Made by a program: the position numbers and the translations under genes
Notes under the pieces: model-generated
The model's input: only the letters and a program-made list of their open reading frames with translations
The model's database searches: none
Told to the model about the DNA's origin: nothing
Source of the DNA: a virus
Reading direction: 5' to 3' (one strand)
DNA length: 64,000 nucleotides
IMG/VR virus record: IMGVR_UViG_3300028844_006574
Coordinates: 1-64,000 of that record
Shown: positions 4,866 through 63,814 of the stretch, piece by piece
How the letters are laid out: every line of letters starts with the position of its first letter
How positions within the stretch are numbered: the first letter of the stretch is position 1

Positions 4866-4867
4866 CT

Positions 4868-42338: not shown

Positions 42339-44276
42339 ATGAGCACATACAGAACAAACAACGACCAATTAGAATTTTCGTTACCCAAGAGTGGGTATGC
42401 AGCATTTGACGCTGCTAGTCTCAAAAACTTAATTATAGAACGTCTCAACAGCAACGAGGTGTTCACTGATCAAAACTATGAAGGTAGTAACATAAATGCT
42501 TTTATTGATATAATAAGCTATGCCTACCATGTACTGTTGTTTTATCTTAACGATACTAGTAATGAGGCCATGTTTTCAGAATCACAAATATATGAAAATA
42601 TAAACCGTATTGTAAAAAGTATAGATTACAAACCTGTTGGTACCCAGTCACCAGTTTTAACAATAAATGTTGTAGCATCTGATCAGTTAATAGCTGGTAC
42701 CTACACGATACCTAGGTATACATATATTGACGTCGGCGGCTTCAGGTACAGTTTTAATAGGGATATAACATTTGTTAAAACAACTAATGACGAACAGGAT
42801 CTAATACAAATCTCCGGAAACACGTTATTATATCAAGGAAGTTACAAGGAGTATCCAACCTATACTGCCACTGGAGAACCTAACGAGACTATCACATTAG
42901 TACCCGGAGAAGGTGTAAATGTCGACCATTTCAATATCGATGTATATGTACAAGAAGGTGGTAACAACGGACAGTATCATAAATATGACACTACAACATC
43001 ATTGTTGTTCGAGAGACCCACCTCTAGGAAAGTAGAAATCCGATTGAATGAAAACAAACGCTATGAAATAAAGTTCGGTAACGGTGTAAACGGTAGACAA
43101 ATACAATCTGGAGATCAAATATATATCTATTACTTATCAACAGACGGTATCGCTGGAGAAATCAGCGAAAATGACGCATACCGGAAATCGATGAGTATGT
43201 ATCAGTCTGTGCAGTTTGAAACACTGAAACAAAGTAATAACATAAAAGGAGATGGTGTTGTATACCTAGTCCAGTCTGAAGCTGACCAGGTGCTAGTCTC
43301 TAACCCGGAACCAAGTTCCAAATATTATGAAGGAGAAACAGTTGAAGATATACGTAAAAATTCTCCACAAACATTTTCATCACAATACAGACTGGTGAGC
43401 TTGACTGATTTTGAAAACTATATAAGAACAAATTTTAGTAACTTCATATCTGATGTCAAAGCTGTAAACAACGATACATATTTAGACACACATATAAAAT
43501 ACTATTATGACTTAGGTTTAAAATCACCTAGTTTAGAGAGTCGCGTGTTGTACAATCAAGTGCAGTTTAGCTCAAGCTGCAATTTCAACAATGTGTACAT
43601 GTATTGTGTACCAAGACTGGAAAAAACTACTACTGTAACAAAGAGAAACAATTATTTAACATCCGCGCAAAAAGAAATCATGATTGATAGGATTTCACAA
43701 ATAAAAACTGTTACATCCGAACCAATAATTATGGACCCTGTATATGTAGGTGTAACAGTAGGTCTCAAAGGACAGGACGAAGTAATTAATATAGAGAGTC
43801 TAAACAATACACAGATCCTAATAGTACAAGATGATAATAGTAGAGCAAACAGTAATGATATAATACAAAAAGTTATAGCTATATTTAAAAATTATTTCAC
43901 CGGGTCAGCCGCTAAAATAGGTATGGTCATAGATTTAACAACAATCAGTAACAGTATATTAACAATACAAGGGGTTTCAACGTTTTACACATACCGACCA
44001 GATTTGAGCAACACATATATAGAAGGTATGTCACTAGTAATACGTAACCCTGTATATGAAGCAGATATAAAACAGACTACACAAAATTTTGCATTACCAT
44101 TATTCAAGTTTCCATTTTTTGAGAATATAGATAGTCTCGGTAACAGTATTAGAGTAGCTAGAACAAGTGAGGTAACTAATATATTAGCCTCCGGTGGTGG
44201 CGTAACGACTATTGTAGAACAGTCTAGTATTTCTACTTCCGGATCTGATACAACCACCGGCAATTCTAGTTATTAA
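42339..44276 (+). CDS. gp6: Baseplate wedge subunit (T4 gp6)
   Basis: FTDQNYEGSN, YEIKFGNGV.G, YL.TDG..G, ET.EDIR..SP..F..Q.RLV...D. Confidence 0.93.
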   Translation: MSTYRTNNDQLEFSLPKSGYAAFDAASLKNLIIERLNSNEVFTDQNYEGSNINAFIDIISYAYHVLLFYLNDTSNEAMFSESQIYENINRIVKSIDYKPVGTQSPVLTINVVASDQLIAGTYTIPRYTYIDVGGFRYSFNRDITFVKTTNDEQDLIQISGNTLLYQGSYKEYPTYTATGEPNETITLVPGEGVNVDHFNIDVYVQEGGNNGQYHKYDTTTSLLFERPTSRKVEIRLNENKRYEIKFGNGVNGRQIQSGDQIYIYYLSTDGIAGEISENDAYRKSMSMYQSVQFETLKQSNNIKGDGVVYLVQSEADQVLVSNPEPSSKYYEGETVEDIRKNSPQTFSSQYRLVSLTDFENYIRTNFSNFISDVKAVNNDTYLDTHIKYYYDLGLKSPSLESRVLYNQVQFSSSCNFNNVYMYCVPRLEKTTTVTKRNNYLTSAQKEIMIDRISQIKTVTSEPIIMDPVYVGVTVGLKGQDEVINIESLNNTQILIVQDDNSRANSNDIIQKVIAIFKNYFTGSAAKIGMVIDLTTISNSILTIQGVSTFYTYRPDLSNTYIEGMSLVIRNPVYEADIKQTTQNFALPLFKFPFFENIDSLGNSIRVARTSEVTNILASGGGVTTIVEQSSISTSGSDTTTGNSSY

Positions 44277-48091: not shown

Positions 48092-48126
48092 TAATTGAAC
48101 CTCAATTATTAACCTATAAATATAAA

Positions 48127-48885
48127 ATGCACAGTGTTACTGTAGTAGTACCTATATTTAAACCGTGTAGTTTCCGGTCGCGTAATATAACCTTTTTGTT
48201 AAATGAGCTAAATAAACTACAAGTAAAAGTAATTGTTGTAGAACAAACACTAAACGATATTGCAAATAACAGGTTTGAAAAACTACCTAATGTAAACCAA
48301 GTCAATTTTGAAAAAAATACAAAACATTTTCACAAAACATATATATGTAATAAAATTATTGAACATATTGAAACAGAATATGTATGGTTTATCGACAGCG
48401 ATTTTTACATGGATTTCAATACGATTCTTATAAATCGAGAATTTTCAAAGTTTGATTTCTTCAAACCGTTTGATACATGTAAAGACTTAAACGAATTTCA
48501 GACTCAACAGCTGGTTACAACTAAACATATAAATGAAAACATGCTCAGAACAAATATGTCATCAGACCGGTTTATTAAATATTTTGGCGCGTTGAGTTAC
48601 ATATGTAAAGTGGATAGTTTTAAAACCTCCGGGCAGTTGGATGAAAAATATATAGGCTGGGGTTATGAAGATTTGGATTTATTTTTAAATATATACAAGC
48701 AAAACTATAGTATAGGTGTAGCTCACGGTGTAAATGCTGTACACATGTGGCACCCTCCTGTGACAAATAAAGCTAAACATATGTTGATAAATAAAAAATA
48801 TTTTGAAAATAAAGGTTACACTATTGACAGAGTTAAACAAGCTCACCGGGAATTGTTTGAAAGTAAAACCGTAATTGACTATTAA
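48127..48885 (+). CDS. GT-A glycosyltransferase with GT7 (galactosyltransferase-like) C-terminal motif
   Basis: VVEQ, FIDSD (DxD), LDEKYIGWGYED, HMWH; TATAAATA immediately upstream. Confidence 0.85.
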   Translation: MHSVTVVVPIFKPCSFRSRNITFLLNELNKLQVKVIVVEQTLNDIANNRFEKLPNVNQVNFEKNTKHFHKTYICNKIIEHIETEYVWFIDSDFYMDFNTILINREFSKFDFFKPFDTCKDLNEFQTQQLVTTKHINENMLRTNMSSDRFIKYFGALSYICKVDSFKTSGQLDEKYIGWGYEDLDLFLNIYKQNYSIGVAHGVNAVHMWHPPVTNKAKHMLINKKYFENKGYTIDRVKQAHRELFESKTVIDY

Positions 48886-48897
48886 ATACTAATATAC

Positions 48898-51800
48898 ATG
48901 TCAATCAACAGCACCAGATACTATTCGAGTGATGATACAACACTATCTGCTACAACCACTAAACCACTAACATATGTTGAATGGTTACAGTATGAAACAT
49001 CATTTGATAGGGCATCCGCATTTGAGCAGTACACAAGGTATCTATCTGAATGGTACAATAAGAGAGATGTAAACAACCAAGTCACAGATGTACAGTATAT
49101 AAGAAATATATACACTGAGTTATTGAAACAAATTTCCATAGAGTTTACCACACCTGATGAAAAGCGTTTTTTATCTAATATAGATTTTGAAAATAAAAAC
49201 GACTTGGATGTTGCTTTACCTTTTTTCGCTAGAAAGTTAAAGCAAATCGCGATATATTATTCAAATCAAAGAGAAGAAATTAAATTTTCCGGTGTCAAAG
49301 CCAATTTGAAAGGTAGTGATTATGGAATCAATCAAGTTGTTTATAAACAAGTGGCCGAGATCATAAAATATGACCCTGACATTCAATCTCAATTGGCTGA
49401 TATGGGACTATCACAGCAAGACGTACTAACGAATTTGAGAGTTGAAGTACAAGAATTGTATGACACGGAACAAAACTATTATAATATACCATATGAATCT
49501 GATGCGAGTAGTTACACCGGTACCGGTTCAAATAGATATAATTACTTCAACATGTCGTTAATTCCTCAAAGAGAGAGAATGTTTTTATCTGATACATTTA
49601 CCGAGACTGTGAAGGAATTGATAGAACAAGTACCGGTAATCATGTTTTCGGGTATCGAAAGCGTAACCCAATCAGACTCGAAGGAAATGAGAGATATAGA
49701 GAATAGATCATATGCCATATCTGATATTATAACCGGAACGGAATTAGATAGATTAAATGATAAACAATTTTCAAATTATTTGTCAACGGGTCAGTTAAAT
49801 ATAGAATATGAACAACTCGCTTTTAAAAAATACTGCGGTACCGACTATTATTATTTGAGCACCGGTGATACACTGTCCCAAGTAGTATCTTCCAAATTAT
49901 TTGCGGCTGATAACCCACATAAAGAAATATTAAATAAATTTTACCCAACTATATTAACCACAAACGGTGAAGGGTTGTATAAGCAAGAATATATTGGAGG
50001 TTATTTTAACTCAAACAATGTGGGTATTTTAACATACACTACTTTAGATTTTGAGTATAAATTCAAACCAACTGAAACAAACAAAACATACTTTTTTCCA
50101 GACCCATCCACTGGCTCAACCGGGTTCTTTGGAGCTGATAGACCGTTTGAAACAGTAGTAGAGTATTATGAAAATGTGAATTGGCAAAAAAACGCAATAA
50201 CAACACATTATAATTTTGGTTTACAAAAACAGTACAAAAACCTCATCAGATTTACCCCGTATCAATCAAAATCTGACACGTATATGACACAAACCGGTGT
50301 CAATAGAAGTACAGATGAATTTGACTTTTGGGAACAAAAAAGTGACAATGTCTGGAAAAACCCGGACATATACCCACTTGGAGAAAATTACACACAACCA
50401 ATAGACACACGATACGGTCAGTTGCTAGGAGGAGACAAGGTATTATATAAATGGAAATCTGATATATATGGTAATGAATATACTTTAATTAAAACAAAGG
50501 TTGAACCAGTTGAACAACCACCTATCAACAAAAATTCAACTCTATATCAGACCGAGTTAAAAACCATACCGGAAGAGCACTTAAAACCCGCTAGTAGACA
50601 TAAAAATAATATAGTACCCAAGCACCACAAAAAGAAAACTCTGACAGAACAACAATCGATCGCCGGTGAATTGTATATTAGGAACAATACATATACCGGT
50701 ATATTAACCTTAAATTCACCTCTGGTAAAACCTTTATACGAAAAATATACCGTACAGGGTAAGGTAACATATAGAGACTCGGAAATAACATTAACCGATA
50801 TATCTTCAGAAATAACTAACGAGTTGCTAGATATTGATGTGATTTATGATACGATAGTCTTTGAAACTCGTAATTACTTAGTATTTGAAAGAATATCCTA
50901 CGATTATGATACCGGGAAAATAAGCACCGGTCATAATAATTTTTCGTTTTTGAAAAAAGACTATCATCAGAACCGGTATGAAAAAACAAGTAATTGGTGG
51001 TATGACAAATCTCAACAAAGTCTAATGGTGGTAAAAACTACCGTCCACCCGGAACTATCTGCAACTACAGACAAGATGATTTACCCGGAAATATATGACT
51101 ACAACATGAATTCCGGTGTTTTGAGACGTACGTACCCGGATCAAGACTTAACAGATGATCAGATTATATATGAAACATCTGTATATTCTCTGTCAAGTAT
51201 AAATAAATTCAATATAATAGACATAGATCGAGTAAAATCACCTAGAATAACATACAACAAAGATTCGGAAAGATATACAATGACTCAACTAGGTTATGAT
51301 ATCGCGGATAATATATTTCTATTAAAAAACGACTTTTTAATGTATGATAACACGGTACAGGCAGTCAAACCAAGTATCTACAAAAACAATTATATAATAT
51401 ATACACTGAACCCGGCTAATGATAGCATACAGAGAACATTTATGTATGAAACAAACCCTAGTCTGACATATCTATCAATGAGTGAGTTTACATACATGCA
51501 CGACGATGTTAGAAACTTGTTGTTCATGGGATGTCTGGAGAACCGAACTACTGAAAACCCAGACCCTCAACCCAATAGCAGTTGTGTGTTTATACACGGT
51601 ACAGAACCACAAAACATGCAAACAAACAGAGACATGGTGATGTGTTTTGACTTCATGACATGTGGGTTTATAGACGGTGACACGACTGCAAAACCAAACG
51701 GGTTGAGTGTAGTGTTTTTCCAAGCACGTGTTAAGGATTTAAATTTAAAAAATGCTGCAGCTTCAGAACCGGAATATGAACTACTCGATGATGGTGGGTT

Positions 51801-52629
51801 AGGGCCTGCATTTACATATTTAGATGATGTAACCCGTGGTACAAACACTCAAAGTGCTTTATCCGGTTTAGACACTGGACATGCATGTGTAGCTTTAGAC
51901 GTTGTTGGTAATGTAGGTGGTAATACAAAAACACCAAACAACATAACCGTATTCGCGCAGTACGATACAGTGAATAGATTTGAAGAAACAACGAATGTTG
52001 ATTCAAGCAAGTATAACTTTTGGTCAGACATATCAGAATATACCGACTACACAGATTTACCATTTGTCAGGTGTAAAGTAGTGTTGACCGATTTAGGTAA
52101 GAGAATTAAAGTATATTTGAAACATCCTCATGAACCAGAGTTTGAATTGGTATCAGATGTGTCACTGCTCCCGGCTGCAGATGCTAGTAAAGTTTTTTAC
52201 AACGACAAAATATACAAATGTTTAACAGACCATACATCATCAGTAACTATCAATATAGAGGATGACACACGAGTAAGCTACAACGGTACAATATACAGAT
52301 GCACAAGAGACCACACAGCTTCTGTAACAGAAACACCTGATAGTACCCCATTTTATTGGAAAGCAGACAAGCAATGGCCATATACATTAAATGCAACCCC
52401 ATGGACCTCCGGGACAAATTATAAATCTAGTAACTGGATCATGATCCAAAGTTACGCACCTGCTCCCGGGGATTATGAAACATGGGATTCCGGAGGTAAC
52501 ACCTATTACAAGGAGTATCAAGCACCTGATCGATTGAAAATGGCATTAGCAAGTAATACATCAGAAGCTAACACTGGATTGACTGTGATCCGGAACATAA
52601 CGGTAACAGGAGCAGGTAACAACACATGA
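48898..52629 (+). CDS. Large structural protein with C-terminal ConA/L-lectin-like domain interrupted by CBM5/12-like motifs
   Basis: NGLSVVFF..GGLG..VALD..PNNI..MALASNT pattern; V.YN..IY.C..DHT x2; late motif upstream. Confidence 0.65.
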   Translation: MSINSTRYYSSDDTTLSATTTKPLTYVEWLQYETSFDRASAFEQYTRYLSEWYNKRDVNNQVTDVQYIRNIYTELLKQISIEFTTPDEKRFLSNIDFENKNDLDVALPFFARKLKQIAIYYSNQREEIKFSGVKANLKGSDYGINQVVYKQVAEIIKYDPDIQSQLADMGLSQQDVLTNLRVEVQELYDTEQNYYNIPYESDASSYTGTGSNRYNYFNMSLIPQRERMFLSDTFTETVKELIEQVPVIMFSGIESVTQSDSKEMRDIENRSYAISDIITGTELDRLNDKQFSNYLSTGQLNIEYEQLAFKKYCGTDYYYLSTGDTLSQVVSSKLFAADNPHKEILNKFYPTILTTNGEGLYKQEYIGGYFNSNNVGILTYTTLDFEYKFKPTETNKTYFFPDPSTGSTGFFGADRPFETVVEYYENVNWQKNAITTHYNFGLQKQYKNLIRFTPYQSKSDTYMTQTGVNRSTDEFDFWEQKSDNVWKNPDIYPLGENYTQPIDTRYGQLLGGDKVLYKWKSDIYGNEYTLIKTKVEPVEQPPINKNSTLYQTELKTIPEEHLKPASRHKNNIVPKHHKKKTLTEQQSIAGELYIRNNTYTGILTLNSPLVKPLYEKYTVQGKVTYRDSEITLTDISSEITNELLDIDVIYDTIVFETRNYLVFERISYDYDTGKISTGHNNFSFLKKDYHQNRYEKTSNWWYDKSQQSLMVVKTTVHPELSATTDKMIYPEIYDYNMNSGVLRRTYPDQDLTDDQIIYETSVYSLSSINKFNIIDIDRVKSPRITYNKDSERYTMTQLGYDIADNIFLLKNDFLMYDNTVQAVKPSIYKNNYIIYTLNPANDSIQRTFMYETNPSLTYLSMSEFTYMHDDVRNLLFMGCLENRTTENPDPQPNSSCVFIHGTEPQNMQTNRDMVMCFDFMTCGFIDGDTTAKPNGLSVVFFQARVKDLNLKNAAASEPEYELLDDGGLGPAFTYLDDVTRGTNTQSALSGLDTGHACVALDVVGNVGGNTKTPNNITVFAQYDTVNRFEETTNVDSSKYNFWSDISEYTDYTDLPFVRCKVVLTDLGKRIKVYLKHPHEPEFELVSDVSLLPAADASKVFYNDKIYKCLTDHTSSVTINIEDDTRVSYNGTIYRCTRDHTASVTETPDSTPFYWKADKQWPYTLNATPWTSGTNYKSSNWIMIQSYAPAPGDYETWDSGGNTYYKEYQAPDRLKMALASNTSEANTGLTVIRNITVTGAGNNT

Positions 52630-55109
52630 AGACACCTTTCAACATACCTAAAATAGAGTTTGATATCACACATGAAAATCAAACATCCACTGGTGAAACT
52701 ATCACACAGACATACGAACAAATCGTACTCAAAGGACCTCATGAAATACAGTTCAACATAAAATCCCAACCTGAGCTGATCAAGGTGGTATACAATCTTG
52801 ACTACACTCAACAGTGTGGTACTACAACACAACCAGCGAGTAGTGAAGTACGATATGAACCCGAATTTACTACTGGTAGTAACAATTTGTTAACAGATCC
52901 CGCTGATTCAATAATCACTGGTCGGTTCTTTCCAGATAAATACCAGTACGAAACAACTGTATTCCCAGGCTTAACAACTATAGATAAAGACCTTAACAAA
53001 GTCGTGCATCAGGTGAGTGTACGAGTTGCACAACCATCCGTACATGATTATGTCAATGATTTAGACATTGTGGATGTAAGAACATTTACAAATCTGTCCG
53101 GTAAACGAGGCAAGGCATTGCTATTACTAGAGGACCAAACAAACAATTTTATAGTCCCTATGACATTGTTTGGAGAGAGACAATACACCAGTACAATTGA
53201 GCTAGGAGACGCACTGTTTGGGCAGATAGTATTCAATATATGTGTATCTAGAGCACCGTACGATAATGTCAAACCTGACGGTACTGAAGTGGTAACAACT
53301 AGTGAGTCATTTTTAGCAGAAACAGTTTTTTACGGTCAGACCAGGTTTGGTACATATGAAGCTGAAGGTTTCCCCGCAGCTGTTCGTGACCAATTCACAA
53401 TAAACAACACAGGTAGTTATCCGCTCCGGGTTTTATCTGTTACTAACCCTAACACACCCTTTTATATGGATGGTATTCAACTAGAAGGTGTATACTCCCC
53501 GGTAGACAGTGGATGTTTAAATTCAAAATCTATTTATGTTTATTTCTCCCCACCTGACTTGATTGATTCAGCGCAATCACAAGGCCAAAATTTTTCTGTA
53601 ACATATCAGGATAGCATCATCATTGAAAATGACAGTGTGAACAACCCCGAGATCAAAATAGATTTAACAGGTACCGCCAAATCCGGGTACTTGGTTGTAG
53701 ATGGACCCGGTTTCACTAGTGATGACCCGGTTGAGTTTGACCCAACATTAGTTGGTGAAAAAACATTACAACCAATCACAATAAGCAACAACGGTAGCTG
53801 CCCGGTCAAGATATTCGATATTGAATATGATGACGATGCGGAAATCACTCCAGATGGAGTGTCATACCCATTTGTTTTGTTACCTCAAGAATCTAGAACA
53901 ATAAATGCGGCTTTCAGACCAACTGAAGCGCGTTACTTAGAAGATATAGCAGACGAAATCGCATACCCGGTACCATATGAAGCTGTGATACCTAAAACCG
54001 TCAACTGGACCATACGTAGCAACGCGTTCAATGACATAACTGTACCAGCCGCTTTGACCGGTCATGCATTCACTACTACAACTACCACAACTACTACTAC
54101 AACAACTACTACAACAACTACTACAACCACCACAACTACAACTACAACTACAACTCAAAGTACCACAACCACAACCACAACCACAACCACAACTACAACA
54201 TGTCCTGTTGAACCGGAAGTGGTGTTTTTGAAGTGGCAAGTGAATCCAGTGTATGTTGTGGAAGGAAAAACAACAAGCATCAGAATAATTAGGGACAGTC
54301 GTAGTACATACAAAGGAGCTCTGCTTGTGGATTACCATCCAGAGGGTGTTACTGACAGTGCACAACCCGGAGAAGATTATGATGAATCTGTGAACACTAG
54401 TGTGGCGTTCTTCCCTGAAAATGCCATGTCGACCGACATCATAATCGGTACATTGGCTGGTGGTGGTATCACGATAGACGGTGTAGAGTTACAGATTTCA
54501 GGTTTGGAAACAGCTGAATATTTCAACATGATGTTGACCAACATCAGAGCCACTCCACCAGAGGGTACCGAGGATGTGTTCCCGTACAGATGTGTACCTG
54601 GATATTTCGTAACCGATTCAGAACCAGAAGGTATACCGTCTGCAAGTGAACCAGTACCATACGTACCCAAGCCTGTGTTGATTCTAGACAAACCTGGTGA
54701 TGCCAGCGTGTCGTTCAAAGGGAGTTGTACATTGGAAGACGTGACCGCGTTGTTGAGATGTGTGGATGATGATGTTACACTGGAACTATTAGAAGTGGAT
54801 GCGCCAGGAGACGGTGCAACATTGTTGGAAGTGTTCAACAAATACACGGGTCAGCTGATCACCACAGTACCGGTGGCCAACTTACAAAACGGACCGGTGT
54901 ATATAGATGTAAAGGAACACCAAGATGAATTTGGTTATGTACAAATACTGTATGAAGCATGCGGTTGCTGTATAGAGAAGGTGTATTCATGCACTTGTTC
55001 AATAATAGATGTTGAAGGAGAGTTGGTATGTTGTAACATCGCAGGTGTTGATGGAGAGCTTGTATGTTGTGAGATAACACAGGTAGAAGGAGAACTTAGT
55101 TGCGGTTAA
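52626..55109 (+). CDS. Structural/appendage protein: Ig-like (ASH/choice-of-anchor-D-like) domains, poly-Thr linker, Calx-beta-like domain, Cys-rich tail
   Basis: TINNTG..PL.V, TISNNG..PV.I, AFRPT, LTG.A; T28-QS-T13; V.EG...A.PGEDY....F. Confidence 0.75.
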   Translation: MKTPFNIPKIEFDITHENQTSTGETITQTYEQIVLKGPHEIQFNIKSQPELIKVVYNLDYTQQCGTTTQPASSEVRYEPEFTTGSNNLLTDPADSIITGRFFPDKYQYETTVFPGLTTIDKDLNKVVHQVSVRVAQPSVHDYVNDLDIVDVRTFTNLSGKRGKALLLLEDQTNNFIVPMTLFGERQYTSTIELGDALFGQIVFNICVSRAPYDNVKPDGTEVVTTSESFLAETVFYGQTRFGTYEAEGFPAAVRDQFTINNTGSYPLRVLSVTNPNTPFYMDGIQLEGVYSPVDSGCLNSKSIYVYFSPPDLIDSAQSQGQNFSVTYQDSIIIENDSVNNPEIKIDLTGTAKSGYLVVDGPGFTSDDPVEFDPTLVGEKTLQPITISNNGSCPVKIFDIEYDDDAEITPDGVSYPFVLLPQESRTINAAFRPTEARYLEDIADEIAYPVPYEAVIPKTVNWTIRSNAFNDITVPAALTGHAFTTTTTTTTTTTTTTTTTTTTTTTTTTTTQSTTTTTTTTTTTTTCPVEPEVVFLKWQVNPVYVVEGKTTSIRIIRDSRSTYKGALLVDYHPEGVTDSAQPGEDYDESVNTSVAFFPENAMSTDIIIGTLAGGGITIDGVELQISGLETAEYFNMMLTNIRATPPEGTEDVFPYRCVPGYFVTDSEPEGIPSASEPVPYVPKPVLILDKPGDASVSFKGSCTLEDVTALLRCVDDDVTLELLEVDAPGDGATLLEVFNKYTGQLITTVPVANLQNGPVYIDVKEHQDEFGYVQILYEACGCCIEKVYSCTCSIIDVEGELVCCNIAGVDGELVCCEITQVEGELSCG
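54072..54200 (+). repeat. Poly-threonine tract (T28-Q-S-T13) of mixed ACT/ACA/ACC codons
   Basis: Read directly, 43 codons. Confidence 0.97.
54996..55103 (+). repeat. Three degenerate 36-bp repeats encoding C-x-I-x2-V-(E/D)-GEL-x-C
   Basis: CSIIDVEGELVC CNIAGVDGELVC CEITQVEGELSC. Confidence 0.9.
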
Positions 55110-55164: not shown

Positions 55165-55911
55165 ATGTCCTGCGAAAACTGTAACATTATAATCCGAAAC
55201 GTTATCGGAACCCCGGCTTCGTATAAAATCCGGTGGACAAAACTAAATTCTTTAAACGAGGTTGTATATATTAACAATGGACCAATCACAGCTAATGATA
55301 TAAGAGAGACAAATCTGGAGATCTTCGCCGGCGGGCCCGGGCATCCGGATTACGGTCAGTATTGGGATGGTAACAACATAAACATCAGATTTGAAAACTT
55401 TTTTAACCCAGATTGTTACCTTGATGTAACATACAGCTGTGAACCAGCGACAACTACCACATTACCATCAGTTGATTGTTGTGACGGCATGGATTACGCG
55501 ATAAAAACAACAGGCTCCGGAGCCGATCAATCACCATTGGCTGGGTTATCAACAACAGGTTTTGCTCAGGGCACATATCAATATACGCAGACAGGTACAT
55601 TTACATACACAGTTGATATACAAGGTACAGGTAAGTTATGCTACGGTGGAATAAATCAGACGGCAACCCCTCGAGGCTCCGGGCTTGGTTGGTCATGTGT
55701 ATTGGTCAATGGTACTGGTCAAGAAGTAGAAGCTGATGGAACAACTTTAGTACAAGGCTTTGCCGGTCCGGTTGGTAGAATAACAATGATTAGGCCATGG
55801 TCAGATAATGTAAACGGTAACTATGTAACATACGTATCTCCAAGCGGTATATGTTTTAGAGGGCAACTCGACGAAAATGGACCATTTTTCGTAGAATTGA
55901 GAGAAGTGTAA
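55165..55911 (+). CDS. Cys/Gly/Thr-rich late protein
   Basis: 248 aa; TAAATA upstream; PATTTTLP linker. Confidence 0.7.
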   Translation: MSCENCNIIIRNVIGTPASYKIRWTKLNSLNEVVYINNGPITANDIRETNLEIFAGGPGHPDYGQYWDGNNINIRFENFFNPDCYLDVTYSCEPATTTTLPSVDCCDGMDYAIKTTGSGADQSPLAGLSTTGFAQGTYQYTQTGTFTYTVDIQGTGKLCYGGINQTATPRGSGLGWSCVLVNGTGQEVEADGTTLVQGFAGPVGRITMIRPWSDNVNGNYVTYVSPSGICFRGQLDENGPFFVELREV

Positions 55912-56468
55912 TGAGATTGTTACAATTACAAGACGAGGTGCAATATTACGTAGGGTGGTACGGAGTGTGTAAAGAAGACGGTACCCCGGATGCTAGTGAT
56001 AGTGACGCGCCCTGTCAAAATATAGATTTAAATACAGGTAGATACGCAGACGGTACTTTATTACAATGGGACAATGGGAAGGGAAACTTCCGCGACCAGT
56101 TACAGTTTGTACAACAAGTTCGGGATGATGGTAAAGACTTTGGGTTGTATGATATGAAAGTTCTAGATGAGATCCGACAATTTTTTATGTTTAGATACGG
56201 TCTCAGCACTAGTGATGCAGCACAAGCTGTTGACCAAGCCATCCGGGAGGAGCTGAACACTCCTCCACCAACCGGGCCTTTAACAAATATTGTAAATTTT
56301 GCTGACCTTGTGTGCGGTAAAGCATATACTATTGTAGTTAAACCTGGTACTGGCGGAACTGGTGTTGGTTCTGTTACATGTCAAATAGACATACCGGAGT
56401 TTAGATACATGTATGTAGGTACAGCTGATTCCGGATTAAGATTAACTAACGAGTGTTGTTACAGTTAA
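55911..56468 (+). CDS. Hypothetical Cys-containing protein
   Basis: 185 aa coupled to upstream stop. Confidence 0.7.
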   Translation: MRLLQLQDEVQYYVGWYGVCKEDGTPDASDSDAPCQNIDLNTGRYADGTLLQWDNGKGNFRDQLQFVQQVRDDGKDFGLYDMKVLDEIRQFFMFRYGLSTSDAAQAVDQAIREELNTPPPTGPLTNIVNFADLVCGKAYTIVVKPGTGGTGVGSVTCQIDIPEFRYMYVGTADSGLRLTNECCYS

Positions 56469-56510
56469 TATAACATTGCATATTAAGTAAAATAACCATA
56501 TATATAGTAT

Positions 56511-57626
56511 ATGAAGTTAACAATAGGCATGTCATGTTATGACGATTATGATGGTGTGTGGTTCACCATTCAGAGCATACTAATGTATCACTCTGAGTGT
56601 GTAGACGATATAAATTTTGTTGTTATTGATGGCAACCCGGAAAGCTCTCACGGTAAAGCTTGTGAGCAACTGATCAGCAAACTGAAAAACAAACACGGTA
56701 ACAACGGATTGTATGTGAAAAATGTTTCTTGGCCTGGTACAGCCAGTAGAGACTACATATTCCAGTATGCAAAGACACCATATGTGTTAGTTGTTGACAG
56801 TCATGTACAGATTGTACCAGGTGCGATCAAAAAATTAATAAAATATTATGATAAACAACCAGATTGTAAAAATTTGATACACGGACCATTGCTAGATGGC
56901 GCCGGTAACACATTTGCTACTGAGATGTCACCAGAATGGGATTACAACATGTATGGTAAATGGTTGGTAAACCCTGACCGGTTGAAATTAAACAAAGAGT
57001 ACGAGATTGAAATCATGGGCCTAGGCTTATTCAGTTGTGTCAAGTCTAACTGGTTAGGATTCAACAAAAAGTTCAGAGGTTTTGGTGGGGAAGAAGGGTA
57101 CATACACAAAAAATATAGAAAAGCCGGTCACAAATCTGTAGCGTTACCCTGGCTCAAATGGAATCATCGTTTCACCAGACCTAGAGGAGTACCTTACCAA
57201 AACGAATACATTGACCGGGTGAAAAACTATTTAATCGGCTGGAACGAGCTTGGTGAAGACACCACAGAAATAATAGACTACTACAGCACCAGCAACACAC
57301 AGCCTGGCCAGGAGCGAGAGGCTATAAACGAATCAGATCTGCTGGTGCTACAAGATAAACTGTCACAAACCAAATTAAACTCTGTAGCACCTGACGCTCT
57401 AGCAGAAGAACATCGTCAGTTACGTGCTCGAGTGATTGAGTTGGAGATGAAATTGATGGAACTAGCTTTCTCACCAGAGTCTAACAAAGTAAAAGAGATG
57501 AGTCTGTCGGAATACACACAACAAACCGAACGATCAACAAATGTATTAGAAAAACCACCAACTGACCCGGTAAAGGCGATAGAGGATTCATTCAAACAAA
57601 AATTAATCCAAGAACCACAGGGTTAA
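56511..57626 (+). CDS. GT-A glycosyltransferase resembling polypeptide GalNAc-transferase catalytic domain (GT2/GT27-like), with C-terminal coiled coil
   Basis: VVDSHV (DxH), MGLGLFS, GFGGEE, NHRF. Confidence 0.8.
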   Translation: MKLTIGMSCYDDYDGVWFTIQSILMYHSECVDDINFVVIDGNPESSHGKACEQLISKLKNKHGNNGLYVKNVSWPGTASRDYIFQYAKTPYVLVVDSHVQIVPGAIKKLIKYYDKQPDCKNLIHGPLLDGAGNTFATEMSPEWDYNMYGKWLVNPDRLKLNKEYEIEIMGLGLFSCVKSNWLGFNKKFRGFGGEEGYIHKKYRKAGHKSVALPWLKWNHRFTRPRGVPYQNEYIDRVKNYLIGWNELGEDTTEIIDYYSTSNTQPGQEREAINESDLLVLQDKLSQTKLNSVAPDALAEEHRQLRARVIELEMKLMELAFSPESNKVKEMSLSEYTQQTERSTNVLEKPPTDPVKAIEDSFKQKLIQEPQG

Positions 57627-60041: not shown

Positions 60042-61820
60042 ATGGCAACAGGTAACGACAGCACTTTCGGACGACAACTGATGTCGTATGTTCAATCCAA
60101 ACTACCATATACTTCAAATAATAATACTATTGAAAATGTGGATGAACTCAACCCTAAATACAAACACTTTTTCAAGACAGGTACCAGAAGAACTGAACTT
60201 ATCCAAAAACATGCTATTAGTACTGTCAAAGCTGGAGAGGATGTACCCATGGGTGGTTTCAACATCGACAAAAAATACCTGGATTACATGTATGCCAATA
60301 TTGATGTCGATAAGGGTAAAAGAATACGAGACTACAGGACCATGGGGGCTTATGCCGAAGTCGCTGACGCTCTAGACGAGATATGTGATGAATGTGTAGT
60401 AGAAGATGACAACGGTCAGATAATCAAAATCGAATATGATGATGCTAGGGATCTAAGCTCCAATGAAAAAGACTCTATCAATCACGAATTTGACAAGTTT
60501 ATAGAGCAGTTCGAATTGGAAGAAAAAGGCTGGGAGCATTTCAGAAACATATTAGTGGATGGTGAGATATTTTTTGAACATGTTATACATGAGGATTATA
60601 AAGATGCTGGTATATTAGGTATAATGAATGTTCCGACTGAGCTAATGGACCCGGTGTATGATAACATCCAAAATACAATAGTCAAAGGATTCATTCTTAA
60701 AAAGCCAGTGTTGAACCCTCAAACCGGTGGTTTAGACAAGTACGAGTTCATACCCTTGGATAAAAACCAAATGACTTATATCAACAGCGGTATCTGGAAC
60801 CAAGACAAATCATTAAGACTACCATTTGTAGAAAATTGTCGTAGAGCTTACAGGCAATTGTTGTTGATGGAAGACGCTATCATTATATATAGATTAGTAA
60901 GAGCCCCTGAACGGTTAGTATTCAATGTAGATGTTGGAAACATGCCCCCACCCAAGGCTGAAGCTTATTTACGTAAACTGATTCAAAACTATTGGTCTAG
61001 GAAAACACATGATGCGTCAAGCTCAGGTGATGGTAACACACAAACCTTCAACCCACAGTCGATGCTTGATAGTTTTTGGTTTGCTAAACGACAAGGTAGT
61101 GAAGGTACGCAGGTTAGTAACTTAGAAGGCGGTGCCAATCTAGGGGAACTAGATGACTTGCTATACTTCATGAAAAAATTGTACAAGTCACTCAAAGTGC
61201 CGGTGAATCGCTTGAACCCAGAATCCACTGTAGAAGACCCGAGTCAAGTGCTGCGAGAAGAACTCAAATTTGCTAGATTTGTCATCCGATTACAACAAAA
61301 TTTTGCCTCTGGGTTGAAAGACGGTTTCATAACCCATTTGAGAATGAGAGGTACCTGGAGCGATTTGGATTTGAAAGAGAAAGACTTCAGGTTCGTGTTC
61401 AACCCGCCTAGAAACTATCACGAACTACGTCAACAGCAGATATTTGAATTACAGTACAACAACTTCAGTCAAATGACTCAAAACGAAGGTGTTAGTAACA
61501 TATTTGCACAGAAAAAATACCTCAAATGGAGCGACAGTGAAGTGAAAGCCAATAGAGAATTTTTACGGAAAGATAAGGAAATTGCATGGGAGTTAGCTCA
61601 GATTGAAAGCGGAGGCCCTAACTGGAGAGAACAATTAGAAGCACAAGCAGCAGACCCTGCAGCTGGTGGTGACGCCCCGGGAGCAGCTCCAATGGACACC
61701 GGTGGAGGTTTAGGTGCACCCCCACCAGCATTCGGTGGCCCGGCGGAAACTGGTATGGAACCAGCAGCAGATGCACCAGTAGACATCGCTCCACCTGAGG
61801 ACACCCCGCCTGCGGCATAA
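60042..61820 (+). CDS. gp20: Portal protein (T4 gp20)
   Basis: YR.M...EV..A.DEI, VDG.IFF, MEDAIIIYRLVRAPERLVFNVDVGNMP..KAE.YL, LYKSL.VP..RL, REELKF. Confidence 0.97.
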   Translation: MATGNDSTFGRQLMSYVQSKLPYTSNNNTIENVDELNPKYKHFFKTGTRRTELIQKHAISTVKAGEDVPMGGFNIDKKYLDYMYANIDVDKGKRIRDYRTMGAYAEVADALDEICDECVVEDDNGQIIKIEYDDARDLSSNEKDSINHEFDKFIEQFELEEKGWEHFRNILVDGEIFFEHVIHEDYKDAGILGIMNVPTELMDPVYDNIQNTIVKGFILKKPVLNPQTGGLDKYEFIPLDKNQMTYINSGIWNQDKSLRLPFVENCRRAYRQLLLMEDAIIIYRLVRAPERLVFNVDVGNMPPPKAEAYLRKLIQNYWSRKTHDASSSGDGNTQTFNPQSMLDSFWFAKRQGSEGTQVSNLEGGANLGELDDLLYFMKKLYKSLKVPVNRLNPESTVEDPSQVLREELKFARFVIRLQQNFASGLKDGFITHLRMRGTWSDLDLKEKDFRFVFNPPRNYHELRQQQIFELQYNNFSQMTQNEGVSNIFAQKKYLKWSDSEVKANREFLRKDKEIAWELAQIESGGPNWREQLEAQAADPAAGGDAPGAAPMDTGGGLGAPPPAFGGPAETGMEPAADAPVDIAPPEDTPPAA

Positions 61821-61828: not shown

Positions 61829-63814
61829 ATGGCAGGAACTCTAGACTCATCATCATTCAACACATCATCTACATCATCAAACTATCAAACCGGTGCCGGT
61901 AGCGCGGCTTTAACAGGTGAAGATGTAAAACCACTTAGTTCATTTTATAGCACCGCTCTAAGCCCCAGGTGTGATAGTTACGAGACATTAGCCACTCGTA
62001 TAGCATATGCTATGGGTTATCCCATGACCAATGTCGAAGTGCACCCTAACGCAATTTTTGACAATATTAGTATAGCTTGTGAATTCTTCGCAAAATATGC
62101 CGGGTATACAGAAGAGTATTTGGTGTTCAATAGTGATTTGTATGAACCTGGCAAAGGAGTCCGGATGGATAAACTGTTCACAATAACACCGGACATGAGA
62201 CAGTGTTATGATACAACCAAGCGTAAATTGGCTACGACTTGCCCTCCGGAAGACCCAGTTACAGAAACAGAAACAGTAACAGGTTATAAAGTCACGTGTA
62301 CTGCGGTGGTCACCTCGACTGATGGACCCGCGCTGTCTAGTACAGAGATAATATGTACAGAAAATCCGGTAAACACAACACCTACAAACACAGACCCTTA
62401 CGCTGGAAATTTGGCAAGTATAATAGCTGCATCTTTTACCAATACAAACACTGGGTCTACTACATCAGACAACCAAATACAGGATACATCCACTACACAA
62501 GAATATGATTATGTCGGTGACTGGTCCGCTATATTGACAGCAGATATGATGAGACAGTCGTTGAGACAACGTATAGCTGACCTGATCGCGCAACAAGAAC
62601 CGGTATGCGAAACATTGACCACGGTTGTAACAGGTATGGACAACAGAATCGTTACAGGTACAACAACACTCACATCTTCTCAACCAGTTTATACAGGTGG
62701 TAGTTTAGCACCAATATTAACAGAATCTACAAAATACAGCTTTACATCATCAACAACCGGTACAACAGGTGTATCTGCAACCAGTACATACACCGGTCCG
62801 TTCACGGCAGAAGACGGTAATGTATATTCATTAGACCCTTATGATGTATACCCACCAGGACCAACACAGTTTCAGACAATAACATCTACTACCATAACTT
62901 CAGATGTATTGCAAGTACCATATGAATCGATCGAGTCGACAACAACATGCACACCTGTAACATCGTTGACAGATGAACAATTACAAGCACTAACAGGAAC
63001 TACAACTACTCCCCCTCCCCCGGTTGTAGACCTACCCACGATTGATTCAGACACAACCACCACGACAAAAACAACCACTGGTACTGTTACACTCGAAGGA
63101 GAGGATGGTACTGAAGTGACATGTATAACGTCGGTTAAAATTGAACCAACAACAGAAACAGGTACTCAAACAGTATGTGTAACGAGTAACACAACAGAAC
63201 AGGTACCAACCACCGCAGCAGAAGAAGAGGTATCTGAATGTTTGTACAACAAAATGTACGATTATGATGTAAATGATTATAGAAAAGTGATCGACATCTG
63301 GAGCTTCAATCAAGGTACACACACAGGTGTCAATACCTTATTCACTTTAGAGCAATCATTAGCACAACAAACATATTTCAGTTACTCCATGGGAAATTAT
63401 GGTTTTGACTTGGTTAGTTGGTACGCTGTAAAAGAGTGGTTAGAACTACGCGAAAAATTGCTAGTTACTAAACCATCTATACATTGGGATTTCCGAACAC
63501 AGTACATGCGGTTGATACCTGAACCTCGTAACAAATATTACGGAGTGATAGCGTGTTATGTAGAGTTACCTGTCAAAGACCTGGTCAAAGAGTTATGGGT
63601 GTACAAATACGCATTAGCTTTGACGAAATTACAAGTGGGTCGTACCAGAAGCAAATTTTCTAACGTACCACTCATTGGTGGTGGTACCGTCAATAGTAAT
63701 GGTGACGCTTTGCTGAGCGAAGGTAAAGAAGAAAAGGACGAACTAGAAAAACAAATGTACGAAGGAGCCCCCGGTCTTGGAGACGCTGCACCCCCAATGT
63801 TCTTTGTTGGATAA
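61829..63814 (+). CDS. gp13: Neck protein (T4 gp13-like) with large Thr-rich insertion
   Basis: N-term LATRI...G.P..NVEV; C-term WVYKYALAL.K.Q.G...SKF..VPL.GG..VN.......EG.EE. Confidence 0.88.
   Translation: MAGTLDSSSFNTSSTSSNYQTGAGSAALTGEDVKPLSSFYSTALSPRCDSYETLATRIAYAMGYPMTNVEVHPNAIFDNISIACEFFAKYAGYTEEYLVFNSDLYEPGKGVRMDKLFTITPDMRQCYDTTKRKLATTCPPEDPVTETETVTGYKVTCTAVVTSTDGPALSSTEIICTENPVNTTPTNTDPYAGNLASIIAASFTNTNTGSTTSDNQIQDTSTTQEYDYVGDWSAILTADMMRQSLRQRIADLIAQQEPVCETLTTVVTGMDNRIVTGTTTLTSSQPVYTGGSLAPILTESTKYSFTSSTTGTTGVSATSTYTGPFTAEDGNVYSLDPYDVYPPGPTQFQTITSTTITSDVLQVPYESIESTTTCTPVTSLTDEQLQALTGTTTTPPPPVVDLPTIDSDTTTTTKTTTGTVTLEGEDGTEVTCITSVKIEPTTETGTQTVCVTSNTTEQVPTTAAEEEVSECLYNKMYDYDVNDYRKVIDIWSFNQGTHTGVNTLFTLEQSLAQQTYFSYSMGNYGFDLVSWYAVKEWLELREKLLVTKPSIHWDFRTQYMRLIPEPRNKYYGVIACYVELPVKDLVKELWVYKYALALTKLQVGRTRSKFSNVPLIGGGTVNSNGDALLSEGKEEKDELEKQMYEGAPGLGDAAPPMFFVG

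What the first reader, a model, noticed from the sequence alone, without database searches (positions are those of the whole stretch)
56511..57626. ppGalNAc-T-like motif set in a phage enzyme directly downstream of the poly-Thr genes
The protein has DSH where most GT2s have DxD, followed by MGLGLFS...GFGGEE...NHRF. This parallels the polypeptide GalNAc-transferase series D(A/S)H...MAGGLF...WGGEN...GHVF recalled from that family. In place of the ricin lectin it ends in a coiled coil/low-complexity tail, which could dock it on assembling particles. It is the best candidate for the peptide-initiating enzyme.
Basis: partly seen in the sequence, partly recalled or inferred. Interest (0 to 1): 0.8.

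Follow-up and report, generated by a model that had tools for sequence, protein, structure and literature searches.

The report
Phage GT27-like poly-threonine glycosyltransferase
An uncultured marine T4-like phage encodes, among its particle genes, a sugar-adding enzyme whose predicted shape is closest to the animal enzymes that start mucin sugar coats. Its relatives in phages and bacteria usually sit next to genes for threonine-rich proteins, so it probably sugar-coats a threonine-rich phage protein, though no experiment has shown this.

Summary
The ORF and all four motifs are real: DSH 96-98, MGLGLFS 169-175, GFGGEE 190-195, NHRF 218-221. D96, H98, E194, E195 and H219 are invariant in 161 homologous domains. 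A confident AlphaFold model (pLDDT 90) matches polypeptide GalNAc-transferases (GT27) best by two independent aligners: Foldseek's listed top-50 are all GT27, and VIA gives Z 22.8/21.7 against 18.9 or less for other GT-A enzymes.

Sequence profiles reach only generic GT2, so this is a GT27-like fold, not a GT27 member. It has no lectin domain. Glu195 sits where GT27 has Asn and inverting enzymes have the catalytic base, so the linkage stereochemistry is open.

Gene neighbourhood is the strongest evidence. In dereplicated relatives, a Thr/Ser-rich ORF lies just upstream in 28/48 phage loci (background 6/693 ORFs) and 18/68 bacterial loci (11/1177). The bacterial enzymes are fused to PqqD peptide-binding domains and follow small leader-plus-poly-Thr precursors.

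In the window's own clade, a 43-residue poly-Thr tract (54072-54200) two genes upstream keeps its length despite synonymous codon turnover.

Activity, donor sugar and the role of the C-terminal tail are untested. This scan had already noted the same cassette on other DNA. I found no paper describing it.

The parts
56511..57626 (+). Glycosyltransferase gene (371 aa): a GT-A catalytic core followed by a clade-specific helical tail
   Evidence: ORF and translation. Pfam PF00535, E 1.7e-7, residues 5-117. AlphaFold model pLDDT 90.3.
56511..57296 (+). Catalytic core (residues 1-262), the part shared by about 1600 homologue clusters
   Evidence: Homologues match query residues 2-260. Foldseek and VIA top hits are GT27 catalytic domains.
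56796..56804 (+). D96-S-H98, a DxH metal-binding motif in place of DxD
   Evidence: D and H are invariant in 161/161; the middle residue is S (94) or C (64). DxH is reported as confined to GT27 and GT60 (PMC7185993).
57015..57101 (+). Region like the Gal/GalNAc-transferase motif (MGLGLFS ... GFGGEEGY), with E195 at the xED position
   Evidence: Weak Pfam PF02709 match over residues 167-211 (E 0.11; 15 of 74 family members match, best E 0.006). G190, G192, E194, E195 and Y197 are invariant.
57162..57179 (+). N-H219-R-F-T-R, holding the C-terminal His of the metal triad and basic residues
   Evidence: H219, R220, F221 and R223 are invariant in 161/161.
57279..57464 (+). Clade-specific extension: a conserved linker (N262, G266, Q267, R269) and a leucine-heptad helix at 297-318
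   Evidence: Conserved in 24 of 24 clade members. Predicted helices at 274-290 and 294-320.
57465..57626 (+). Variable low-confidence tail (residues 319-371)
   Evidence: Present in 16 of 24 clade members and poorly conserved. Blockwise mean pLDDT is about 51-84 over residues 320-371.
52626..55109 (+). 827-aa protein with an internal poly-Thr tract, the most likely substrate in this phage
   Evidence: Translation. Homologues in L161, L164, L169 and L171 are 56-78% identical. Weak NCBIfam 'choice-of-anchor D' match at residues 362-435.
54072..54200 (+). T28-QS-T13 tract (residues 483-525)
   Evidence: Length and position are conserved in 5 homologues. Thr codons differ synonymously between them. 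Predicted disordered, though that model has low confidence.
55165..55911 (+). 248-aa Cys-containing ORF between the poly-Thr gene and the GT; function unknown
   Evidence: Conserved in position in the clade at 30-57% identity. No family match.
55911..56468 (+). 185-aa ORF immediately upstream of the GT, ending in a Cys pair and an aromatic residue; function unknown
   Evidence: Conserved in position in the clade at 29-47% identity. No family match.
48127..48885 (+). Second GT-A gene in the same late block (GWGYED motif), a possible glycan-extending enzyme
   Evidence: Pfam PF10111 E 1.3e-7 and PF02709 E 1.3e-5. TATAAATA lies at 48115-48122, just upstream.

Best explanation
The gene encodes a soluble, cytoplasmic GT-A glycosyltransferase from a large uncharacterised family of phages and bacteria. 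The family has a ppGalNAc-T-like (GT27-like) catalytic domain and uses threonine-rich polypeptide tracts as acceptors. During late infection it most likely transfers a sugar from a nucleotide-sugar, bound through Mn2+ held by D96, H98 and H219, onto Thr hydroxyls of phage proteins. The first candidate is the conserved 43-residue poly-Thr linker of the 827-aa protein two genes upstream. The Thr-rich neck protein may also be a target. The result would be a mucin-like, sugar-coated appendage on or around the virion. Other transferases, such as the GT at 48127, could extend the glycan.

Shown: the fold, the invariant residues and the family-wide linkage to Thr-rich genes. Inferred: the protein acceptor, its identity in this phage, and the initiating role. 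Unknown: the donor sugar, the anomeric outcome and the role of the leucine-heptad tail.
For: 1. Fold.
- AlphaFold model: pLDDT 90.3, core above 95.
- Foldseek against the PDB: every entry listed in the top 50 is GT27 (GalNAc-T1/2/4/7/10/12, Toxoplasma GalNAc-T3, PGANT9), best E 4e-15.
- The independent VIA search of 48,161 chains: mouse GalNAc-T1 Z 22.8, rmsd 3.0, 258 residues; TgGalNAc-T3 Z 21.7; next best 18.9 (WrtF), then RmlT, K4CP, B4GALNT1, TarS and SpsA.

2. Catalytic residues.
- D-x-H plus the C-terminal His are invariant in 161/161.
- DxH in place of DxD is described as confined to GT27 and GT60, the two polypeptide Ser/Thr O-glycosylating families (PMC7185993; PMC3825155).

3. Neighbourhood, phages.
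- In 42 of 74 IMG/VR loci the ORF ending about 18 nt upstream on the same strand has a T/S run of 8 or more, against 10 of 1263 other ORFs.
- After dereplication: 28/48 against 6/693 (odds ratio 160, p 4e-32).
- These ORFs are Pro/Thr/Ser-rich proteins of 100-2426 aa that end in poly-Thr plus a Cys-x(2-5)-Cys-(N/K)-x-L-x-aromatic C-terminus.

4. Neighbourhood, bacteria.
- 18/68 against 11/1177 (p 4e-17).
- The GT domain is fused to PqqD/RRE peptide-binding domains, HprK-related kinase, GT25, sulfotransferase and methyltransferase domains.
- It follows small ORFs with a twin-Arg leader, a W-x-x-P-V-V block, P-A-H-A and then poly-Thr.
- [Y/W]xxPx[LVIFA] is the published RRE-binding leader motif (PMC13381572).

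5. This phage's own clade.
- The gene order poly-Thr protein, two small ORFs, GT, 780-aa protein, portal is conserved at 57-64% GT identity.
- The poly-Thr tract keeps its length while its codons change synonymously.

6. Setting.
- The gene sits in a same-strand block of structural genes (gp6-like, portal, neck).
- The protein starts directly with the first Rossmann strand, with no signal peptide or membrane segment.

7. Related complete phages.
- In related ~200-kb phages this is the only GT2 in the structural module. Other GT2 genes cluster more than 30 kb away.
Against: - There are no biochemical or proteomic data for any family member.
- No sequence-level relationship to GT27 was detected. 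The A1 profile against PDB sequences finds TarP (E 4.7e-6) and TarS over the N-terminal half only. Fold similarity does not prove acceptor type.
- In this phage the GT is not adjacent to the poly-Thr gene. The conserved C-terminal Cys motif of the other phages' mucin-like proteins is absent from the window.
- About 40% of phage loci and about 75% of bacterial loci show no Thr-rich ORF within 2.5 kb upstream. Some of these are truncated contigs.
- Invariant Glu195 lies where GT27 has Asn. This departs from the GT27 active site and is compatible with an inverting enzyme, which could equally extend a glycan.
- The phage carries other transferases and DNA-modification genes, so other acceptors are possible.
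Confidence: 0.65

Rival explanations
1. It is a glycan- or polymer-directed GT2 that modifies a host envelope polymer (LPS, capsule or teichoic-acid-like) during infection, as proposed for many marine phage glycosyltransferases and shown for the prophage enzyme TarP.
For: Pfam assigns it only to GT2. The best sequence-profile hit among solved structures is TarP, a wall-teichoic-acid GlcNAc transferase, followed by TarS. Invariant Glu195 at the xED position fits an inverting sugar-to-sugar transferase. Related phages carry several other GT2 genes.
Against: The TarP and TarS matches cover only the nucleotide-binding N-half. Full-domain structure comparison ranks GT27 above every polysaccharide GT2 by 3-4 Z units, with lower rmsd. 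This reading does not explain the strong same-strand linkage to Thr-rich ORFs in phages and bacteria, the PqqD/RRE fusions or the position inside the structural gene block.
Confidence: 0.12
2. It does act on the Thr-rich glycoprotein, but as an extending enzyme. It would add a second sugar to a residue installed by another transferase, for example the GT at 48127-48885 or a host enzyme.
For: Glu195 occupies the catalytic-base position used by inverting GT-A enzymes. The window holds a second GT-A in the same block. Bacterial relatives are fused to further GT domains (GT25, FucT_N).
Against: In most phage relatives this is the only GT next to the mucin-like gene and the only GT2 in the structural module. 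In bacteria it is the domain always present alongside the RRE, while the partner GT domains vary. The closest folds are initiating polypeptide transferases.
Confidence: 0.13
3. It glycosylates modified phage DNA, or a small molecule, rather than protein.
For: Phage GTs often glucosylate DNA (review statements in PMC12619734). This genome also carries a 7-deazaguanine pathway: QueC at 3472-4182 and earlier-scan note e1-6048453.
Against: The gene lies in the late structural block, far from the DNA-modification genes. Its bacterial homologues are peptide-guided fusions. Nothing links the family to modified-base genes in the 80 phage loci examined.
Confidence: 0.04
4. The Thr-rich neighbours are an incidental feature of fast-evolving fibre genes, and the enzyme's true acceptor is unrelated and unknown.
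For: Low-complexity linkers are common in fibre proteins. Many loci lack a Thr-rich neighbour.
Against: The enrichment is 40- to 160-fold over other ORFs in the same loci. It is seen in every major clade of the tree. It recurs in bacteria, where the neighbours are small leader-bearing peptides rather than fibre proteins.
Confidence: 0.06

Closest known systems
Polypeptide N-acetylgalactosaminyltransferases (CAZy GT27; e.g. mouse GalNAc-T1 8v9q, human GalNAc-T2 2ffu, Toxoplasma GalNAc-T3)
   Same: Closest solved fold for the whole catalytic domain. Both have DxH plus a C-terminal His metal triad, a region like the Gal/GalNAc-T motif with G-G-E, and an H-x-F-(x)-R segment. Both are linked to Thr-rich, Pro-containing acceptors.
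   Different: No detectable sequence-profile similarity. The phage enzyme has no ricin-type lectin domain, no membrane anchor and no secretory pathway. It has Glu, not Asn, after the G-G-E. Its motif has Phe for Trp and Asn for the upstream Asp. It comes from phages and bacteria, not eukaryotes. Donor and stereochemistry are unknown.
GT60 cytoplasmic and kinetoplastid polypeptide alpha-GlcNAc transferases
   Same: These are the only other family reported with DxH. They are cytoplasmic or lectin-less polypeptide O-glycosyltransferases placed next to GT27, GT7 and GT2-CHS in the GT-A tree (PMC7185993).
   Different: Not compared directly here: no GT60 chain appeared in the lists and no GT60 sequence was available from the tools. 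GT60 is eukaryotic.
Bacterial GT2 enzymes TarP, TarS, SpsA and K4CP
   Same: Pfam GT2 N-terminal domain. These are the best sequence-profile hits. GT-A fold with Z 16-18. All carry a carboxylate at the xED position.
   Different: They use DxD, act on polyol-phosphate or glycan acceptors, and give lower structural scores than GT27.
Mycobacteriophage virion glycosylation (Che8, Corndog, Myrna; Freeman et al. 2023, cited in PMC12801897 and PMC12619734)
   Same: Phage-encoded transferases that O-glycosylate the phage's own structural proteins. This is the only experimentally shown case I am aware of.
   Different: Actinobacteriophages, with glycans on the C-termini of capsid and tail-tube subunits. 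I could not read that paper, so the enzyme families were not compared. No family member was found in the INPHARED collection of deposited phage genomes, by tblastn at E 1e-5.
RRE-guided peptide tailoring with HprK-like kinases (linear polyphosphorylated peptides and paeninodin-type lasso peptides; Popov et al. 2026, PMC13381572)
   Same: The bacterial relatives of this GT are fused to PqqD/RRE and HprK-related kinase A domains. They follow precursors carrying a W-x-x-P-V-V leader block that fits the published [Y/W]xxPx[LVIFA] motif.
   Different: Those systems lack this GT domain. The phage enzyme has no RRE, and its likely substrates are large proteins without such a leader.
Glycocin S/O-glycosyltransferase SunS (GT2)
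   Same: A GT-A enzyme that glycosylates a ribosomal peptide.
   Different: A much weaker structural match (Z 13.4, rmsd 5.9). It uses DxD and modifies single Cys or Ser sites on a folded peptide.

Membership tests
CAZy GT27 (ppGalNAc-T) | GT-A catalytic domain most similar in structure to known GT27 domains | tested here: met
   Foldseek top-50 listed entries are all GT27, E down to 4e-15. VIA gives Z 22.8 and 21.7 against 18.9 or less for other families.
CAZy GT27 (ppGalNAc-T) | DxH motif plus a C-terminal His coordinating Mn2+ | tested here: met
   D96, H98 and H219 are invariant in 161/161. The motif definition comes from PMC3825155 and PMC7185993. Metal binding itself was not tested.
CAZy GT27 (ppGalNAc-T) | Gal/GalNAc-T motif D-x5-W-G-G-E-N-L-E | tested here: not met
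   The protein reads N-x5-F-G-G-E-E-G-Y. G-G-E is kept, but Asn becomes an invariant Glu, Trp becomes Phe and Asp becomes Asn. Pfam PF02709 matches only weakly (E 0.11).
CAZy GT27 (ppGalNAc-T) | Significant sequence similarity to GT27 members | tested here: not met
   phmmer against PDB sequences gave no hit. The A1 profile at E <= 1 found no GT27 chain. Foldseek alignments show 13-17% identity.
CAZy GT27 (ppGalNAc-T) | C-terminal ricin-type lectin domain and a type II membrane anchor | tested here: not met
   No lectin or membrane domain was found. The C-terminus is a helical tail.
CAZy GT27 (ppGalNAc-T) | Retaining transfer of GalNAc from UDP-GalNAc to Ser/Thr | not testable with these tools
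   Needs an enzyme assay and linkage analysis.
GT2 (Pfam PF00535 Glycos_transf_2) | Match to the family model above its curated cut-off | tested here: met
   31.8 bits against a cut-off of 23.3, residues 5-117. All 74 members of A1 match.
GT2 (Pfam PF00535 Glycos_transf_2) | DxD metal motif and an xED catalytic base (inverting mechanism) | tested here: inconclusive
   DxD is replaced by DxH. A carboxylate is present at the xED position, but as Glu rather than Asp. The mechanism is untested.
Phage 'mucin-like protein plus GT' cassette (uncharacterised; seen here in IMG/VR loci) | A GT of this family encoded about 18 nt downstream of a Pro/Thr/Ser-rich ORF that ends in poly-Thr plus a Cys-x(2-5)-Cys-(N/K)-x-L-x-aromatic C-terminus | tested here: not met
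   The GT belongs to the family at 43-51% identity to the main clade. The window lacks that C-terminal motif, and its poly-Thr tract is internal to a gene two ORFs upstream. The window's clade is a separate, strongly supported branch (8 rows, support 100) with its own conserved gene order.

The most novel reading that the evidence does not exclude
This phage and bacterial family is a prokaryotic sister lineage, possibly close to the source, of the eukaryotic DxH polypeptide O-glycosyltransferases (GT27 and GT60). If so, mucin-type chemistry (dense O-glycosylation of poly-Thr/Pro tracts by a soluble GT-A enzyme) exists outside eukaryotes. Large marine phages would use it to build sugar-coated mucin-like fibres on their particles, and many bacteria would use it to make exported, leader-guided poly-Thr glycopeptides.
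Probability: 0.3. Interest if true: 0.85.

Novelty: new variant of a known kind. Interest (0 to 1): 0.7.

Why it matters
Virion protein glycosylation by phage enzymes has been shown experimentally only for mycobacteriophages. Mucin-type initiation by DxH GT-A enzymes is regarded as a eukaryotic invention.

This is a large family: about 1600 clusters at 50% identity, hundreds of viral contigs, and 402 matches among the species-representative bacterial genomes. It combines a GT27-like fold with a conserved link to poly-Thr substrates.

Three things would follow if the reading holds:
- The origin of mucin-type O-glycosylation would become testable with simple soluble enzymes.
- Abundant estuarine and marine T4-like phages would be predicted to carry a glycan coat, which could affect adsorption, stickiness to organic matter, grazing or stability.
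- The family would offer lectin-free, cytoplasmic Thr-glycosylating enzymes as tools for making mucin mimetics in bacteria.

Tried and rejected
- PHROGs: no family for the GT or its neighbours.
- phmmer against PDB sequences: no hit.
- tblastn against the INPHARED phage collection: no match at E 1e-5.
Contexts came from the search for related loci instead.
- Complex prediction of the GT core with residues 470-540 of the poly-Thr protein: 'no answer', score 0.00. This is no evidence either way.
- AlphaFold of the 827-aa poly-Thr protein with only five sequences: pLDDT 44, too poor for a fold search.
- ESM Atlas: only viral and bacterial GT2 clusters, and no structure held.
- Sequencing runs: no RNA holder listed. 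DNA holders are marine and estuary metagenomes.
- T4 late-promoter word TATAAATA: 10 matches against 6.3 expected, not significant overall. None lies directly before the GT; the nearest is a one-mismatch TATATATA at 56497-56504.
- A loose regex for the RRE leader motif also hit 14 of 80 phage loci, so it is not specific. I rely on the inspected bacterial precursors instead.
- A residue-level superposition on GalNAc-T2 could not be made. Model coordinates are not exposed, and no GT27 sequence was available from a tool. The residue correspondences therefore rest on motif order, the aligned ranges (model 1-289 to GalNAc-T1 116-398) and published motif descriptions.
- Ten literature searches found no description of this family or cassette. 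Freeman et al. 2023 is not held.
Full report
**1. Observation.** The window is a stretch of an uncultured T4-like myovirus. It carries a portal gene at 60042-61820 (Pfam Portal_T4, E 2e-101), a tail sheath at 22248-24941, a gp6-like wedge protein at 42339-44276 and a neck adaptor at 61829-63814. The portal is only about 31% identical to cyanomyovirus portals. The record is a 91-kb fragment, estimated 43% complete.

ORF 56511-57626 (+) encodes 371 aa. Pfam sees only the N-terminal half of a GT2 domain (E 1.7e-7). PHROGs, NCBIfam and PDB sequence searches give nothing specific.

**2. The family.** The protein has 1426 relatives in the word-indexed database. An exhaustive HMMER search of 50%-identity representatives finds 1623. 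Nearly all match residues 2-260, which defines a ~260-aa catalytic module. D96, H98, W143, W181, E194, E195, W217, H219, R220, F221 and R223 are invariant in A1 (74 rows) and in 161 of 161 domains taken from phage and bacterial loci. The motif set is therefore a family signature, not chance.

**3. Fold.** With A1 as the alignment, AlphaFold gives pLDDT 90.3, above 95 through residue ~280. Foldseek against the PDB returns only GT27 entries in its listed top 50, best E 4e-15. These are human GalNAc-T2, T4, T7, T10 and T12, mouse T1, Drosophila PGANT9 and Toxoplasma GalNAc-T3.

The VIA-align search does not depend on Foldseek. Against 48,161 representative chains it ranks mouse GalNAc-T1 first (Z 22.8, rmsd 3.0 Å, 258 residues; model 1-289 aligned to chain 116-398) and TgGalNAc-T3 second (Z 21.7). 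There is then a step down to WrtF (18.9), RmlT, K4CP, B4GALNT1, TarS and SpsA. The peptide S-glycosyltransferase SunS scores 13.4.

In the viral structure library, the only match stronger than those to GT27 is one uncharacterised family member.

**4. How GT27-like is the active site?** Published descriptions give ppGalNAc-Ts a DxH motif for Mn2+ and a D-x5-WGGENLE Gal/GalNAc-T motif shared with beta-1,4-galactosyltransferases (PMC3825155). A survey of GT-A families states three things (PMC7185993):
- Replacement of DxD by DxH is confined to GT27 and GT60.
- Those two families share polypeptide Ser/Thr O-glycosylation and cluster with GT7 and GT2-CHS.
- Inverting enzymes keep an xED Asp as catalytic base, which retaining families lose.

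The phage family has the DxH and the C-terminal His. Its motif region matches Pfam Glyco_transf_7C weakly (residues 167-211, E 0.11; 15 of 74 members match, best E 0.006).

At the xED position it has an invariant Glu (G-G-E194-E195). GT27 has Asn there and GT7 and GT2 have Asp. The site is therefore a hybrid: metal ligands of the GT27/GT60 type, with a carboxylate retained as in inverting enzymes. I cannot predict the anomeric outcome or the donor.

Sequence profiles do not connect the family to GT27. The A1 profile against PDB sequences finds TarP (E 4.7e-6) and TarS over the N-half only. I therefore file it as GT27-like in fold and metal site, not as a GT27 member.

**5. Neighbourhood in phages.** A scan of IMG/VR found 538 relatives, and 80 loci were fetched. 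In 42 of 74 loci with upstream sequence, the ORF ending about 18 nt before the GT on the same strand has a Thr/Ser run of 8 or more. Only 10 of 1263 other ORFs do.

These ORFs range from 100 to 2426 aa. They are Pro/Thr/Ser-rich and almost all end in a poly-Thr run followed by a short conserved C-terminus, Cys-x(2-5)-Cys-(N/K)-x-L-x-aromatic-stop.

After dereplicating GT domains at 90% identity, 28 of 48 phage loci have a 30-residue window with at least 60% Thr+Ser within 2.5 kb upstream. The background is 6 of 693 ORFs (odds ratio 160, p 4e-32).

The host genomes are related T4-like phages. The GT closes a same-strand block of large fibre-like genes and abuts homologues of the window's replication genes. 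In four such genomes, two of them complete at ~200 kb, this is the only GT2 in the structural module.

**6. Neighbourhood in bacteria.** The species-representative genome set holds 402 relatives, in Alpha- and Gammaproteobacteria, Desulfobacterota, Acidobacteriota, Planctomycetota and others. There the module is usually part of a 450-1300-aa fusion. The fused domains include PqqD/RRE peptide-binding, HprK-related kinase A, GT25, FucT_N, sulfotransferase and methyltransferase domains.

In 18 of 68 dereplicated loci a Thr/Ser-rich ORF lies just upstream, against 11 of 1177 for background (p 4e-17). Fifteen of 80 loci show P-A-H-A followed by a Thr run, and none of 80 phage loci do.

These are small precursors, sometimes in tandem copies. 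Each has a twin-arginine leader, a conserved (K/R)-W-x-(K/R)-P-V-V block, P-A-H-A and a poly-Thr tail. One reaches the TAT-signal model at threshold. The W-x-x-P-V-V block fits the published RRE-binding leader motif [Y/W]xxPx[L/V/I/F/A] (PMC13381572).

An enzyme fused to a leader-binding domain and encoded next to a leader-plus-poly-Thr peptide is the classic signature of a peptide-modifying enzyme. The GT domain is the constant catalytic part of these fusions. By homology (43-51% identity) this carries over to the phage enzymes.

**7. The window's own clade.** A quick maximum-likelihood tree places the window with seven metagenomic relatives on a long, fully supported branch, separate from the main phage clade. 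Thr-rich neighbours occur in every major clade.

In this clade the order is conserved in L161, L164, L169 and L171, at 57-64% GT identity:
- a 1243-aa CBM-bearing protein
- a ~820-aa poly-Thr protein
- a ~250-300-aa ORF
- a ~150-200-aa ORF
- the GT
- a ~780-aa protein
- the portal
- the neck protein

The poly-Thr tract (residues 483-525, nt 54072-54200, T28-QS-T13) has the same position and nearly the same length in five homologues that are 56-78% identical. Its ACA/ACT/ACC/ACG codons are shuffled between them. Selection therefore acts on the Thr tract itself, not on a DNA repeat. The tract links two mostly beta-strand regions, but that model is of low confidence.

Only this protein, and more weakly the 661-aa neck protein (16.8% Thr), are Thr-rich among the neighbouring structural proteins.

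**8. The tail.** The clade has a specific extension after the core. It has an invariant N262/G266/Q267/R269 block and a helix at 297-318 with Leu every seventh residue, present in all 24 close relatives. The remaining ~50 residues are variable and absent in a third of them. The main phage clade lacks this extension altogether. A coiled-coil contact is plausible, either self-association or docking to a neighbouring gene product, but it is untested.

**9. Mechanism proposed.** A late-expressed cytoplasmic enzyme binds a nucleotide-sugar through Mn2+ held by D96, H98 and H219. It glycosylates Thr hydroxyls in extended Thr-rich tracts of phage proteins before or during assembly.

The fold, the invariant residues and the linkage to Thr-rich genes are shown. 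The acceptor, the initiating role and virion display are inferred. The donor and stereochemistry are unknown.

The genome fragment also encodes an RmlD-like reductase (11085-12038) and a CMP-sugar-synthetase-like gene at 85648-86166. It has two further GT-like genes, at 48127-48885 and 4868-5569, which could supply or extend glycans.

**10. Rivals.** The alternatives considered are:
- a GT2 that modifies the host envelope
- a glycan-extending role on the same glycoprotein
- DNA or small-molecule glycosylation
- coincidental linkage to Thr-rich genes

The extension rival is the most serious, because of Glu195. The others do not explain the neighbourhood data or the RRE fusions.

**11. Novelty.** Ten full-text searches found no description of this family or cassette. 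The nearest experimental precedent is mycobacteriophage virion glycosylation (cited).

This scan has already flagged the same phage cassette (e1-5810539, e1-3443958 and several first-reader notes) and the bacterial cassette (e1-3939780, e1-2983128, e1-4008627) on other DNA. Those are unchecked AI notes. I re-derived the fold result, the enrichment statistics and the leader motif independently here.

New for this window:
- a distinct clade of the enzyme with a leucine-heptad tail
- a different, conserved gene arrangement
- an internal, length-conserved poly-Thr linker as the probable target

Noticed in passing
window 48127-48885 (+): A second GT-A glycosyltransferase (252 aa; Pfam Glyco_tranf_2_2 and Glyco_transf_7C; GWGYED motif). 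It sits between two >1200-aa structural-type genes, with the T4 late-promoter word TATAAATA at 48115-48122. A distant homologue occupies the same position in L164.
   Followed up: partly
window 61829-63814 (+): The neck/head-tail adaptor homologue (phrog_211) is 661 aa with 16.8% Thr. It has a central region reaching 50% Thr+Ser over 40 residues, which relatives L002 and L171 (369 and 449 aa) lack. It is a second possible acceptor.
   Followed up: partly
IMG/VR loci such as L021:9489-9983, L014:9489-9983, L043:6606-9983, L036:2702-9982: Phage mucin-like Pro/Thr/Ser proteins of very different lengths share a C-terminal signature: a poly-Thr run, then Cys-x(2-5)-Cys-(N/K)-x-L-x-(F/Y/W)-stop. The GT gene starts about 18 nt later. 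No database family matches (the L021 example was scanned).
   Followed up: partly
Bacterial loci such as L148:3411-4893, L139:1221-4597, L091:4532-4903, L082:6951-7866: Small, sometimes tandem precursor genes sit upstream of RRE/HprK-fused homologues of the GT. Each has a twin-Arg leader, a (K/R)WxKPVV block, PAHA and a poly-Thr tail. They look like exported, leader-guided poly-Thr glycopeptides.
   Followed up: partly
window 54990-55109 (C-terminus of the 827-aa protein): The poly-Thr protein ends in three to four repeats of a short G-E-L-x-C-C unit with conserved Cys pairs. The two small downstream ORFs are also Cys-rich at their C-termini. The function is unknown.
   Followed up: no
window 3472-5569 (+): QueC (7-cyano-7-deazaguanine synthase, E 1.5e-54) lies next to a glutamine-amidotransferase-like ORF (4182-4865) and a Glyco_tranf_2_5-like ORF (4868-5569). 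The latter two have homologues near the GT cassette in other phages.
   Followed up: no
window 11085-12038 (+) and G000:C1:85648-86166: An RmlD-like nucleotide-sugar reductase (E 1e-21, below the curated cut-off) and a CMP-sugar-synthetase-like gene (PF02348, E 5e-11). Both are possible donor-sugar pathway parts carried by the phage.
   Followed up: partly
window 48898-52629 (+): A 1243-aa protein with a CBM_5_12 carbohydrate-binding module at residues 1124-1155. Homologues lie upstream of the mucin-like/GT cassette in 12 other phage loci.
   Followed up: no
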